From a virus (taxonomy: Duplodnaviria; Heunggongvirae; Uroviricota; Caudoviricetes), in the IMG/VR virus record IMGVR_UViG_2671180921_000016: DNA of 10,202 nucleotides. One strand, 5' to 3'. Positions 3,006 through 5,446 of the stretch are shown in pieces. Below the pieces are notes generated by a model. It had not been told where the DNA came from. It saw nothing but the letters and a program-made list of their open reading frames with translations, and searched no databases. The first letter of the stretch is position 1. Each line of letters opens with the position of its first letter. Position numbers and translations under genes: made by a program.

Positions 3006-4823
3006 TTAATTTTTGCTATCGTCATTAGTGACCGATACACATGATGGCATCCAGTCTTCTGATTCCTCCGTCAGTGTCACGTTTGAACGCAAACCGTGCT
3101 TCGTTTTCCGTTTCATATACTCCCTGCCATATTCCGCCATTGCCCCCGGCATATCTTTACCGAAGCGCGTCAGTGTTACAGGTTTACCAAACCCATGTGC
3201 CCTCATATAAGCCAGATAGGCATGATAGAGATACCTGCGTGGGCTGAATGGCACAATTTCAGCATTACCCACTAACAGGCCATCACACATTACCGACGCC
3301 ATGAGATAGCCGCAGAAGTCCACCAGCGAATCCCCCTCTCGCTTTATCGCCAGTGCTTCTTCAGATTTCTGCTGCTCATATAACAGGCGTCTGGCTTCGT
3401 CCTGGTCAGCAAACCGTGTAAGCAGATGGCGAATCACTACCGCCAGCTCACCTTCTATTTTTTCCGCCAGCATTGGATCGCGTTCGTTCTCCGGTACAAC
3501 TTCCGAAAAATTGAATATCACCCGACGACGTGAGATCCCCCCGCTGCGGTCACTGAATGACATGGCGTTATTGTTAACCGCCAGCACTACTGCCGGAATA
3601 CGCGTTGAGTAGGGGGCTTTGTGTTTCGGGTCAATTGCCACCTTGTCACCGCCTGTAATGGCCTTAATCCCTGCCCCATCACCAGCGTAGCGGGTCATAT
3701 CCGGCATGATAATCAGCGAAAAGCCAACCACTAACGCGCGTTCCCTTGCATCTTCCAGCGCCTTCATGCTTGCCGATACTGTGTTGGCCTTACCCGCCAG
3801 CATGGTGCAAATCTCCGCCATCACGCTTTTACCACTTCCCCCTGGACCTGTTACCTCAATGAATAACTGCCAGTCGTACCGGTTCGCCAGCACCATGAAT
3901 AATGCAGCCAGTACGCGATCCGCCTTGCGGTCATTCTCAGCCACCGAACGGCGTAACCACTTCCAGAAATTCGGCGCATGTGTTGCCAGCGTTTCCCCCT
4001 CTGCTGGTGGGCTGAAAGGTAATTCACTGGCAATTAACAACCAGTCGTTTTTGTTATGCTCCCGAAAATTACCTGTTCTGGTATCAAATACCCCGTTACT
4101 GAATCCAATCAGGTTACGGGCTGTATTCCCCATTACAGGCAAACTTAACTTCATGGTATCGACCGCCGATTTAATGGCGTTCTGCGAATAGCTGATCTCC
4201 GCATCAATGAAAATCTGCGCCATAGCACGCTGTAACTCTTTATCCTGAACCGGCTCCCATACAACGCCGTTGTAATGGTGAACAGTGTCAGAGTCGGCAT
4301 GAATCGCCAGTTCACCGCCATAATGTGCCAGGAGAACTTCGCCGCGTTGACTTGCTCCCATCTGGTTAAGCGCCAGTGATGAAGCGTTATCGTCTTTTAC
4401 CCGCTCTTTTTTCTTTACAGGCAGTTCAACTACCTTTTTCTTTTCCGCCAGCTCTCCCCGCTCACGTTCCAGATATTCGCGCCAGTTCTCCCGTTTCTGG
4501 CTGTGCATTCCTTCAGGGTAATAATCAGCATCCCTGACACCTGCCGCTGCCAGTTTCTGCCCGATGGTATTAACAAGTCCCGGACGCAATAACCCCGCCT
4601 GATAGAAACGCACGCGATAGCGTCCGTCTGGTACGATTTGCAGGTTGTCCAGTTCGTCAAGTTGTTGCTCTCCAAGCCAGACAGGTGGCACGTTATCGCC
4701 AGCCAGTCGCCCGTCCTGTTCCTGCCACTGCTTCGCATGTGCCCACGCATCACTACCCGCAAAAATGATGACTTCCGTCATTTTGTCACGCGGCTGGTGT
4801 TTTAAATTTGGCGCTTTTTTCAT
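3006..4823 (-). CDS. Replication protein: P4-family phage/plasmid primase with D5-like NTPase/helicase domain
   Basis: Walker A VTGPGGSGKS and downstream ITGGDKVAIDPKHKAPY...AVNNN typical of the primase C-terminal NTPase domain. ATG 4823 (strong GGAGAGAG Shine-Dalgarno) overlaps the upstream TGA (ATGA); the track's 4838 start is a GTG five codons upstream. Iterons lie just 3'. Confidence 0.85.
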   Translation of the reverse strand: MKKAPNLKHQPRDKMTEVIIFAGSDAWAHAKQWQEQDGRLAGDNVPPVWLGEQQLDELDNLQIVPDGRYRVRFYQAGLLRPGLVNTIGQKLAAAGVRDADYYPEGMHSQKRENWREYLERERGELAEKKKVVELPVKKKERVKDDNASSLALNQMGASQRGEVLLAHYGGELAIHADSDTVHHYNGVVWEPVQDKELQRAMAQIFIDAEISYSQNAIKSAVDTMKLSLPVMGNTARNLIGFSNGVFDTRTGNFREHNKNDWLLIASELPFSPPAEGETLATHAPNFWKWLRRSVAENDRKADRVLAALFMVLANRYDWQLFIEVTGPGGSGKSVMAEICTMLAGKANTVSASMKALEDARERALVVGFSLIIMPDMTRYAGDGAGIKAITGGDKVAIDPKHKAPYSTRIPAVVLAVNNNAMSFSDRSGGISRRRVIFNFSEVVPENERDPMLAEKIEGELAVVIRHLLTRFADQDEARRLLYEQQKSEEALAIKREGDSLVDFCGYLMASVMCDGLLVGNAEIVPFSPRRYLYHAYLAYMRAHGFGKPVTLTRFGKDMPGAMAEYGREYMKRKTKHGLRSNVTLTEESEDWMPSCVSVTNDDSKN

Positions 4824-5119
4824 TTCTGCTCTCTCCACGCGGCAATCATGTTTTTCAGTTCCTGTAGTTTTTTATCCACATCCACACGTGACACATGGTT
4901 ATTTCTGGAAGTCGGGATTTCCCGCCTGAATCTGCTAATAAAGATCTCCACGTTCAGCGAACTATGAAATGAATAGCCATCACGAATAAAATACACACGG
5001 TCAAACATCAGTTCTTTTACCGTTACTCTGTTACCGTTCTTATCCAGATAAATAGCGCCGGGGATAATTTTGGGGTGTGCATAACCACTGGCAGTCAAGC
5101 CAGATAAATATGTTCTCAC
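4820..5119 (-). CDS. Hypothetical 99-aa protein, GTG start, coupled to the primase gene
   Basis: Track ORF; its stop overlaps the primase ATG. GC content is lower than the primase gene. No recognisable motif. Confidence 0.5.
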   Translation of the reverse strand: MRTYLSGLTASGYAHPKIIPGAIYLDKNGNRVTVKELMFDRVYFIRDGYSFHSSLNVEIFISRFRREIPTSRNNHVSRVDVDKKLQELKNMIAAWREQK

Positions 5120-5125
5120 GATTAT

Positions 5126-5446
5126 TTATCCCCGATTTGAATCAGTATTCGCTTTCTTTATGGCATTTAATGCACCTGTGGCATTTTCAATGGTGCACCG
5201 TAACGAAATATCAAACTGCCCAAGCATTGCCAGTAACAAACCGATATTACCCATATCAATGCGCATAGCCTTTTCGTCATAGTCCTCATTTTCTGACGCA
5301 TGCCACATCAGGCTACCAATTGACGCAATACCCATTGATATATTGTCAGTAGCCCCATCCGCAGCGGAATAAACCTTTTTAGCAATATCATGCTCACAGT
5401 TAAAATGCGGATTAATCAGGTACTGGTAATTTGACATATCAGGCAT
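5126..5446 (-). CDS. Hypothetical 106-aa protein, first gene of the minus-strand replication operon
   Basis: Track ORF with a GGGGG Shine-Dalgarno about 5 nt before ATG 5446. Six nt separate its stop from the next gene. Relatively AT-rich. Confidence 0.5.
   Translation of the reverse strand: MPDMSNYQYLINPHFNCEHDIAKKVYSAADGATDNISMGIASIGSLMWHASENEDYDEKAMRIDMGNIGLLLAMLGQFDISLRCTIENATGALNAIKKANTDSNRG

What the first reader, a model, noticed from the sequence alone, without database searches (positions are those of the whole stretch)
4820..5446. Two small unknown genes (106 aa and 99 aa) inserted ahead of, and translationally coupled to, the primase
Both genes are more AT-rich than the primase, are separated by only 6 nt, and the second overlaps the primase start (ATGA). 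Neither has a domain I recognise. Small paired genes at the head of a satellite replication operon could be a toxin-antitoxin-like module, an anti-repressor/derepression module that senses the helper phage, or helper-interference factors.
Basis: inference. Interest (0 to 1): 0.5.

Follow-up and report, generated by a model that had tools for sequence, protein, structure and literature searches.

The report
Two small genes before PICI primase
The two small genes are real and are conserved, separately exchangeable parts of the early operon of an E. coli phage satellite (PICI): the second is a divergent relative of the known regulator RgdR, and the first is an acidic two-helix protein of unknown function, so the finding is mostly ordinary and they are not a toxin-antitoxin pair.

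Summary
On the minus strand a 106-aa gene (5446-5126) and a 99-aa gene (5119-4820) lie 6 nt apart. The second overlaps the primase start by ATGA. Both are AT-rich (GC 0.41 and 0.42, against 0.51 for the primase). They are not at the head of the operon, because an Icd-like gene (5642-5439) overlaps the 106-aa start by 8 nt.

The 99-aa protein carries Pfam DUF4222 (E 7e-17). It aligns without gaps over its full length with RgdR/ECs1581 (31% identity), which occupies the same ATGA-coupled slot before the primase of EHEC island OI-51/Sp7. RgdR is a published pleiotropic regulator reported in all analysed E. coli PICIs. The window copy belongs to a separate clade with PGA in place of the RGD motif.

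The 106-aa protein is an acidic predicted helical hairpin (PHROG 15327, function unknown). Its family is restricted to enterobacterial satellite islands.

The two genes are not an obligate pair, since each occurs without the other. Neither shows homology to toxins, antitoxins, P4 epsilon or P4 ORF106. The ori iterons follow the primase body, not the DUF4222 clade.

Verdict: a new member of a known kind, of modest interest.

The parts
5759..5788 (-). Sigma-70-like promoter candidate (TTGACA-18-TATGTT) upstream of the Icd-like gene. It is the likely start of the operon.
   Evidence: This is a consensus match only (10 of 12), and the region as a whole has fewer such sites than shuffled sequence. 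No terminator-like site was found on the minus strand between here and the primase.
5439..5642 (-). Icd-like / Ash-region ORF (67 aa, basic), the first gene of the operon. Its stop overlaps the 106-aa start by 8 nt.
   Evidence: NCBIfam NF033153 E 5.5e-20. PHROG 6196 and 1743. RefSeq annotates it as 'host cell division inhibitor Icd-like protein' in related loci. Weak similarity to the C-terminus of the P4 'cI' ORF.
5126..5446 (-). 106-aa acidic protein (pI 4.8). It is predicted to be a two-helix hairpin, belongs to PHROG 15327, and has no known function.
4820..5119 (-). 99-aa basic protein (pI 10.0) with a DUF4222 domain. It is a divergent RgdR-family member (PGA instead of RGD at residues 20-22) with a GTG start in this copy.
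3006..4823 (-). P4/D5-type primase-helicase (605 aa from the ATG at 4823). Its start overlaps the 99-aa stop as ATGA.
   Evidence: Pfam D5_N, DUF5906 and Pox_D5. TIGR01613. RefSeq annotation of the same start.
4404..4823 (-). N-terminal ~140-aa domain of the primase (PHROG 2850, no Pfam match). It always follows a DUF4222 gene and is joined to different catalytic bodies in different islands.
2770..2998 (.). AT-rich iteron array (GGTGAACAGT / ACTGTTCACC, at least 10 copies in both orientations). It is the likely replication origin served by the primase.
   Evidence: and the composition profile.
6633..6851 (-). AlpA-type HTH/excisionase-family regulator (island context).
   Evidence: Pfam HTH_17 and TIGR01764.
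7694..9124 (-). Tyrosine integrase at the island end, next to chromosomal nfeF (island context).

Best explanation
The two ORFs are separate accessory genes of the early/replication operon of an E. coli PICI-type phage satellite. The gene order is Icd-like, 106-aa gene, 99-aa gene, primase, then ori.

The 99-aa protein. It is a divergent member of the RgdR (DUF4222) family. The model shows a small basic protein with an SH3/Tudor-like beta-barrel (residues ~23-56) and a C-terminal helix (78-98). By analogy with RgdR, it most likely binds DNA with low sequence specificity and acts as a transcription co-factor on host and island promoters. I infer that it is made together with the primase, through the conserved ATGA overlap, whenever the operon is on.

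The 106-aa protein. It is an acidic two-helix hairpin from a family confined to enterobacterial satellite islands. It most likely acts by binding another protein, probably as a dimeric helical bundle. Its target, whether helper phage or host, is unknown.

The two are independent cassettes that recombination shuffles separately. They are not a functional two-gene module.

Shown: gene structure, family membership, synteny, modular exchange, and independence of the DUF4222 clade from the ori type. Inferred: DNA or RNA polymerase binding, co-expression with the primase, and protein binding by the hairpin.
For: Family and position of the 99-aa gene. It has a Pfam DUF4222 match above the gathering score. 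It aligns over the full length, without gaps, to RgdR/ECs1581 (31% identity, E 7e-14). RgdR sits in the identical slot in Sakai Sp7, overlapping the primase ECs1582.

Literature on RgdR. RgdR is a 99-aa protein of pI 10 that binds DNA non-specifically, activates LEE1, represses motility and increases Congo red binding (PMC3378721). [quoted passage not shown]

Island identity. The window has an integrase, an AlpA-type regulator, a primase and downstream iterons.

The 106-aa protein. AF2 gives mean pLDDT 78.6 with helices 19-51 and 58-105. It is acidic, with a net charge of -6. Homologues in other genera occupy the same slot after the Icd-like gene.

Independence of the two genes. L013, L088 and L089 carry the 106-aa gene at 92-96% identity next to an RgdR-clade DUF4222. 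Serratia, Kluyvera and Trabulsiella homologues are followed by a PHROG 6610 protein instead. Sakai and L090-L093 have DUF4222 without the 106-aa gene.

Coupling. The ATGA overlap is conserved in 75 of 75 loci and the 6-nt gap in 69 of 70.
Against: Nothing has been tested for this clade of DUF4222. It shares only 31% identity with RgdR and lacks the RGD motif, whose residue 20 affects RgdR activity.

The mechanism of RgdR itself is unknown (2024 review, PMC10877973), and its role in the PICI life cycle has never been examined.

The hairpin fold of the 106-aa protein matched nothing significantly, so 'protein binder' is a generic inference.

The strict adjacency of DUF4222 to the primase N-terminal domain hints at a replication-linked role that this explanation leaves open.
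Confidence: 0.6

Rival explanations
1. Replication-accessory reading. The 99-aa DUF4222 protein would be a partner or regulator of the primase, working through the primase N-terminal domain. This would be analogous in position to P4 Cnr, the small protein gene between epsilon and alpha that controls P4 copy number. Translational coupling would set the ratio of the two proteins.
For: DUF4222 is always directly upstream of the same ~140-aa primase N-terminal domain and overlaps it by ATGA (75 of 75 loci). The catalytic body behind that domain changes between islands: P4/D5 type, DUF927/Sakai type, or a third type.

The pattern repeats in other genera. A different basic 112-122 aa protein (PHROG 6610) precedes a different N-terminal domain, and that domain is shared by a P4-type primase in Serratia and an AAA_25 replicase in Kluyvera.

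P4 has the syntenic order cI/Ash ORF, epsilon, orf151, orf106, alpha, and the cnr gene family lies between epsilon and alpha (PMC8628076).
Against: There is no sequence similarity to P4 ORF106/DUF5375.

The ori iterons follow the primase body, not the DUF4222 clade. The window and L091 share iterons although their DUF4222 clades differ. L016 and L018 share the Sakai iterons although they carry the window clade.

The co-variation could be plain physical linkage of adjacent DNA.

RgdR has clear transcriptional phenotypes that do not depend on the island (PMC3378721).
Confidence: 0.2
2. Helper-directed reading. One or both proteins would act on the helper phage. The 106-aa protein would be an anti-repressor or derepressor like P4 epsilon, or a factor that interferes with helper reproduction.
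For: The 106-aa gene occupies the epsilon slot: it is the gene that starts with an 8-nt overlap at the end of the Ash/Icd-like ORF. In P1 the icd gene is likewise followed by the coupled antirepressor gene ant (my own knowledge, not checked here).

Small acidic helical proteins are typical inhibitors of other proteins. This slot holds a variable set of such proteins in related islands, for example ECs1579, ECs1580, L006_87 and L008_56. That kind of variability is expected for helper-specific factors.
Against: There is no similarity to the epsilon family PF25738 or to Ant, KilA or Bro domains. tblastn of either protein finds nothing in 50,697 phage records. Fold searches give nothing significant. 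P4 epsilon is basic, not acidic. The helper phage of this island is unknown.
Confidence: 0.13
3. Toxin-antitoxin-like reading. The acidic 106-aa protein would be an antitoxin and the basic 99-aa protein a toxin, stabilising the island.
Against: There is no toxin, antitoxin or PADLOC family hit.

The genes are not an obligate pair.

They sit inside a longer coupled operon rather than forming a two-gene unit of their own.

RgdR and its variants were expressed alone from plasmids, including in an island-deleted strain, and the paper contains no mention of toxicity (PMC3378721).
Confidence: 0.04
4. The ORFs are chance reading frames or untranslated leader sequence of the primase mRNA.
For: The region is AT-rich, and the 106-aa family is taxonomically narrow.
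Against: The 99-aa protein has a Pfam match and the 106-aa protein a PHROG match. Homologues at 25-50% identity occur in other genera with conserved motifs. Of about 50 distinct alleles of each gene, all but one have the modal length, and variable sites are commonest at third codon positions. Pairwise dN/dS is mostly 0.15-0.7. Each start has a Shine-Dalgarno-like sequence. RgdR, the relative of the 99-aa protein, has been purified and shows deletion phenotypes (PMC3378721).
Confidence: 0.02

Closest known systems
RgdR (ECs1581) of EHEC O157:H7 O-island 51 / CP-933C / Sp7, the founding member of Pfam DUF4222
   Same: Both are 99 aa with pI about 10 and match DUF4222. They align without gaps over the full length, and K35 and the core of residues 23-64 are conserved. 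Both sit immediately upstream of the satellite primase, overlapping it by ATGA, in an island with the same integrase / AlpA / Icd-like / primase / SSB / PerC layout.
   Different: Identity is only 31%. The window copy belongs to a separate clade of more than 470 E. coli genomes with PGA in place of the RGD motif. Effects on type III secretion, motility and DNA binding have not been tested for this clade.
Left (early) operon of satellite phage P4: cI/Ash ORF, epsilon, orf151, orf106 (cnr region), alpha primase
   Same: The order and packing match: an Ash/Icd-like ORF comes first, the next gene overlaps it by 8 nt, and small genes precede a P4-type primase-helicase. The Icd-like protein matches the same PHROGs that carry the 'transcriptional repressor' label.
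   Different: There is no detectable homology between the 106-aa protein and epsilon (PF25738), or between the 99-aa protein and P4 ORF106 (DUF5375). The charge properties differ. No C4/CI-type RNA was found by Rfam.
Bacterial Tudor/SH3-like RNA-polymerase-binding domains (UvrD/PcrA C-terminal domain, CarD/CdnL N-terminal domain, NusG/Spt5 KOW)
   Different: The resemblance is at fold level only, with 8-15% identity. Other SH3-like barrels score equally well (FeoA, histone-reading Tudor domains, VapX). No test of binding to RNA polymerase exists.
Small helical-hairpin protein binders (WXG100/EsxB, the TraM anti-activator, HP0062)
   Same: The 106-aa model is a ~90-residue antiparallel two-helix hairpin with TM scores of 0.56-0.70 to these proteins.
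   Different: No match is significant (best E 0.37). There is no sequence similarity and no WXG motif. This is a generic fold resemblance only.

Membership tests
RgdR / DUF4222 family (PF13973) | Pfam DUF4222 match above the gathering score | tested here: met
   61.1 bits against a cut-off of 27, E 7.2e-17, covering residues 16-67. PHROG 285 E 1e-21. RefSeq names the orthologues 'DUF4222 domain-containing protein'.
RgdR / DUF4222 family (PF13973) | Full-length collinearity with ECs1581 (99 aa, basic) | tested here: met
   Ungapped alignment of residues 1-99 to 1-99, 31% identity, E 7e-14. pI 9.99 against 10.09.
RgdR / DUF4222 family (PF13973) | RGD motif at residues 20-22, the motif that gave RgdR its name and whose residue 20 affects activity | tested here: not met
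   The window protein has P20-G21-A22. Among 121 aligned sequences of 90-125 aa (119 database proteins plus the window protein and ECs1581), 71 have RGD and 16 have PGA, the latter being the window clade. Membership of the Pfam family stands, but orthology with RgdR in the strict sense does not.
RgdR / DUF4222 family (PF13973) | Lysine 35, whose K35N change attenuates RgdR | tested here: met
   K35 is invariant in alignment A2. The functional data are in PMC3378721.
RgdR / DUF4222 family (PF13973) | Activates LEE1 and type III secretion, represses motility, binds DNA non-specifically | not testable with these tools
   These are experimental phenotypes from PMC3378721 and have not been measured for this clade.
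Gram-negative PICI (phage-inducible chromosomal island) | Integrase at one end, an AlpA-type regulator, a primase/replicase followed by an iteron ori, and no full set of phage structural genes | tested here: met
   The window has the integrase (7694-9124), the AlpA/HTH_17 gene (6633-6851), the primase (3006-4823) and the iterons (2770-2998). The near-identical full island in NZ_CP070229 has no structural genes annotated. Related islands carrying the same cassette do have capsid genes, that is, the capsid-forming type.
Gram-negative PICI (phage-inducible chromosomal island) | Induction, excision and packaging by a helper phage | not testable with these tools
   This needs experiments, and the helper phage is unknown.
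Type II toxin-antitoxin module | Either protein belongs to a known toxin or antitoxin family | tested here: not met
   No such hit in Pfam, NCBIfam or PADLOC.
Type II toxin-antitoxin module | The two genes co-occur as an obligate, autonomous two-gene unit | tested here: not met
   Each gene is found with other partners. Both are embedded in the coupled operon from the Icd-like gene to the primase.
P4 epsilon 'Derepression protein family' (PF25738) | Sequence or profile match to epsilon | tested here: not met
   Pfam found no match. hhalign of alignment A1 against P4 epsilon gave probability 0.1%. P4 epsilon itself matches PF25738 at E 9e-51.
P4 ORF106 / DUF5375 (cnr region) | Sequence or profile match | tested here: not met
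   hhalign of A3 and of A1 against P4 ORF106 gave probability <=0.1%. Pfam found no DUF5375 match.

The most novel reading that the evidence does not exclude
DUF4222/RgdR proteins, including this PGA clade, could be satellite-encoded antagonists of H-NS-type xenogeneic silencing or general RNA-polymerase-binding anti-silencers.

The three published RgdR phenotypes are LEE1 up, motility down and Congo red binding up. Together with non-specific DNA binding, they resemble what loss of H-NS function produces in E. coli. That comparison is my inference from general knowledge, and I found no discussion of it in the papers I read.

Such a factor, made together with the primase, would open the AT-rich genes of the island, and of the helper, when the satellite is induced. 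A related and compatible possibility is that the small basic protein works with the primase N-terminal domain, with which it always travels.
Probability: 0.15. Interest if true: 0.6.

Novelty: new member of a known kind. Interest (0 to 1): 0.3.

Why it matters
RgdR is treated in the literature as a virulence 'accessory' gene of EHEC islands. This analysis points instead to a fixed component of the satellite replication operon. DUF4222 genes are ATGA-coupled to the primase in every locus examined. They exist in at least two deep clades and swap independently of the origin and replicase body. That suggests their effects on host virulence and motility are side effects of a function in the satellite life cycle that nobody has tested.

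The 106-aa hairpin family and the linkage between the small basic protein and the primase N-terminal domain are small new observations that could guide such experiments.

None of this changes the general picture of PICI biology. About 9% of complete E. coli genomes carry this exact cassette, so it is common rather than exotic.

Tried and rejected
- Defence and toxin libraries (PADLOC, Pfam, NCBIfam) gave nothing relevant for either protein.
- tblastn of both proteins against 50,697 phage records gave no match, and megablast of the region against phages gave none.
- The exhaustive HMMER search with the 106-aa protein found only a handful of ~100-aa relatives. It also returned three long repeat proteins (a TPR-like protein and two low-complexity proteins) whose scores are inflated by 4-13 repeated stretches. 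I rejected these as homologues.
- PDB sequence searches with both family profiles and with the primase N-terminal domain gave nothing significant.
- Foldseek of the hairpin model against PDB and BFVD gave no match with E <= 0.001.
- Homology to P4 epsilon and P4 ORF106 was rejected.
- An Rfam scan for a C4/CI-type immunity RNA upstream of the operon found only a sub-threshold miRNA-family match, which is really the ori inverted repeats.
- The idea that DUF4222 determines ori specificity was rejected by the iteron comparison.
- The idea that the DUF4222 clade strictly tracks the allele of the primase N-terminal domain was rejected: window-clade DUF4222 occurs with both alleles.
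Full report
**1. What is in the sequence**

The finding's coordinates are correct, but all the genes lie on the minus strand.

- The 106-aa ORF runs 5446..5126.
- After a 6-nt gap, a 99-aa ORF runs 5119..4820.
- Its TGA stop overlaps the primase ATG (4823) as ATGA.
- GC content is 0.411 and 0.423 for the two small genes. The primase has 0.513 and the gene just upstream has 0.574, so the 'AT-rich' remark is right.

Three details need correcting or adding.

- A 67-aa Icd-like ORF (5642..5439; NCBIfam NF033153, E 5.5e-20) precedes the pair and overlaps the 106-aa start by 8 nt. The pair is therefore in the middle of an operon of at least four genes.
- A sigma-70-like site lies at 5788-5759, and no terminator-like site was found on the minus strand before the primase.
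- This copy of the 99-aa gene starts with GTG. Of the 70 related loci where both genes could be scored, 68 have ATG and one has GTG.

Each start has a Shine-Dalgarno-like run.

**2. The genes are real**

- The 99-aa protein exceeds the Pfam gathering score for DUF4222.
- The 106-aa protein matches PHROG 15327 end to end.
- An exhaustive HMMER search found ~100-aa relatives at 25-66% identity. Six of them were located in Kluyvera, Trabulsiella, Serratia and Pantoea genomes.
- Megablast finds the two-gene stretch at >=80% coverage and >=94% identity in 471 of 5426 complete E. coli genomes, at many chromosomal sites.
- In 79 distinct IMG/VR loci I found 54 and 51 distinct DNA alleles. All but one of each have the modal length, and variable sites are commonest at third codon positions.
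- Pairwise dN/dS is mostly 0.15-0.7 on few substitutions.
- The 6-nt gap (69 of 70) and the ATGA overlap (75 of 75) are conserved.

**3. The surroundings**

The window is a PICI-type satellite inserted next to nfeF. Its parts, in order along the minus strand, are:

- an integrase (7694-9124);
- an AT-rich 241-aa unknown ORF;
- an AlpA-type HTH gene (6633-6851);
- three small plus-strand genes, including a ribbon-helix-helix YlcI/YnfO-type gene;
- the Icd-like gene, the 106-aa gene, the 99-aa gene and the primase;
- an AT-rich iteron array (2770-2998; GGTGAACAGT, at least 10 copies);
- an 81-aa ORF, then SSB, ProQ/FinO and PerC genes.

Related islands with the same cassette carry capsid, protease, portal and terminase genes, so they are of the capsid-forming PICI type.

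**4. The 99-aa gene**

The only characterised DUF4222 protein is RgdR (ECs1581) of EHEC O-island 51 / Sp7 (PMC10877973, PMC3378721). I fetched that locus. ECs1581 is also 99 aa, sits directly before the island primase ECs1582 and overlaps it by 4 nt.

The two proteins align without gaps over all 99 residues at 31% identity (E 7e-14).

A profile search returned 527 relatives. The 121 aligned sequences of 90-125 aa (119 database proteins plus the window protein and ECs1581) fall into two deep clades.

- The RgdR clade is 70-100% identical to ECs1581 and has xGD at residues 20-22 (RGD in 71 sequences).
- The window clade is >=80% identical to the window protein, about 30% identical to RgdR, and has PGA at those residues.

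The window gene is therefore a family member but not a strict RgdR orthologue. K35, which matters for RgdR activity, is conserved.

**5. The 106-aa gene**

- It has no Pfam, NCBIfam or PADLOC match.
- It is acidic (pI 4.8).
- It is predicted to be a two-helix hairpin, with helices at 19-51 and 58-105 (mean pLDDT 78.6).
- Fold searches against PDB and viral models found nothing significant.
- The nearest shapes are generic hairpin binders such as EsxB, TraM and HP0062.
- Conserved residues include G44, M47, Y56, G69 and N88.

**6. Are the two genes a pair? No.**

- In L013, L088 and L089 the 106-aa gene (92-96% identical) is followed by an RgdR-clade DUF4222.
- In Serratia, Kluyvera and Trabulsiella islands its homologue is followed by an unrelated basic 112-122 aa protein (PHROG 6610).
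- In Sakai Sp7 and in L090-L093, DUF4222 is preceded by other small acidic helical proteins such as ECs1579 and ECs1580, which have no similarity to the 106-aa protein.

The general layout is: an Icd-like gene, then one to three variable small acidic helical proteins, then one small basic protein, then the replicase.

The lack of obligate pairing, the absence of toxin or antitoxin domains, and the fact that RgdR restored type III secretion when expressed alone in an island-deleted strain (PMC3378721) make a toxin-antitoxin module unlikely.

**7. Relation to replication**

DUF4222 is always followed by the same ~140-aa primase N-terminal domain (PHROG 2850). The catalytic body behind that domain varies:

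- P4/D5 type in the window;
- DUF927/Sakai type in L016 and L018;
- a third type in L088.

In the same way, the PHROG 6610 protein is followed by a different N-terminal domain. That domain is shared by a Serratia P4-type primase, whose body is 68% identical to the window primase, and by a Kluyvera AAA_25 replicase.

This co-travel of the small basic protein with the replicase N-terminal domain could reflect an interaction, or it could be plain linkage. I could not separate the two.

The iterons downstream of the primase follow the catalytic body, not the DUF4222 clade. DUF4222 is therefore not the determinant of ori specificity.

**8. Comparison with P4**

The P4 left operon has the order cI/Ash ORF, epsilon (8-nt overlap), orf151, orf106, alpha, and the cnr family lies between epsilon and alpha (PMC8628076).

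The window operon is syntenic with it. The 106-aa gene sits in the epsilon slot and DUF4222 in the slot before the primase. Profile comparisons show no homology, and the charge properties differ.

The 'derepression' idea therefore has positional support only.

**9. Verdict**

- the reading as a satellite operon with coupling and mosaic origin holds;
- the toxin-antitoxin idea is disfavoured;
- the derepression and helper-interference ideas remain untested and have no homology support;
- the 'no known domain' statement is wrong for the second gene.

The best description is two independent accessory cassettes of a PICI early operon. One is a divergent RgdR-family regulator. The other is an uncharacterised acidic hairpin protein.

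Novelty is a new member of a known kind, and interest is modest.

The most novel reading still open is that RgdR-family proteins are anti-silencing or RNA-polymerase-binding factors of satellites. This is suggested by the resemblance of the published RgdR phenotypes to loss of H-NS function, which is my inference and is untested.

Noticed in passing
window 2770-2998: An AT-rich array holds at least 10 copies of the 10-mer GGTGAACAGT/ACTGTTCACC in both orientations, directly downstream of the primase. It is the likely satellite origin. Across related loci the iteron sequence changes with the primase catalytic body: TAACCCGCA for the Sakai-type body, ACTGTCCGCC or ACTGTCCACC in Serratia.
   Followed up: yes
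window 4404-4823 (-); L003 4601-5026; L006 6605-7000; L004 6671-7100: The replicases of these islands are modular. A ~140-aa N-terminal domain (PHROG 2850, no Pfam match, no PDB relative) is joined to at least three unrelated catalytic bodies. A second, unrelated N-terminal domain is shared by a Serratia P4-type primase and a Kluyvera AAA_25 replicase. Each N-terminal domain type travels with its own small basic upstream gene.
   Followed up: partly
window 6985-7710 (-): A 241-aa ORF with very low GC (0.32; GC3 0.24) lies between the integrase and alpA, overlapping the integrase start. It has no Pfam, NCBIfam, PADLOC or meaningful PHROG match. Weak homologues (24-40% identity) sit in the same position in Trabulsiella and Serratia islands. 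It could be an accessory or defence-type cargo gene.
   Followed up: no
window 5439-6623 (-) versus 5782-5976, 5980-6105 and 6163-6360 (+): A 394-aa minus-strand ORF ends in the Icd-like sequence. It overlaps three plus-strand small genes, one of them a ribbon-helix-helix YlcI/YnfO-type gene, and the base skews favour plus-strand coding there. RefSeq annotates fragments of this long frame as 'ash family protein' pseudogenes in related loci. The long ORF is probably spurious upstream of the Icd-like part.
   Followed up: partly
window 5117-5119: This copy of the DUF4222 gene starts with GTG. Of the 70 related loci where both genes could be scored, 68 have ATG and one has GTG, which is likely the same element.
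   Followed up: yes
L001 (NZ_CP099721.1), locus coordinates 1297-14220: An island with the same cassette is inserted inside a prophage terminase large-subunit gene, with the two terminase halves annotated as pseudogenes on either side. This is the 'helper-embedded PICI' configuration described in PMC10111431.
   Followed up: no
window 1183-1497, 1452-1976 and 2033-2476 (-): Downstream of the ori the island carries an SSB gene, a ProQ/FinO-family RNA chaperone gene and a PerC-family regulator gene. A ProQ/FinO gene is absent from most of the related islands I looked at.
   Followed up: no
106-aa protein, residues 38-47 and 65-72: The two predicted helices each carry an 'MG..IG.L' motif (MGIASIGSLM and MGNIGLLL), with G44 and G69 invariant. 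This suggests an internal duplication or glycine-mediated helix packing.
   Followed up: no
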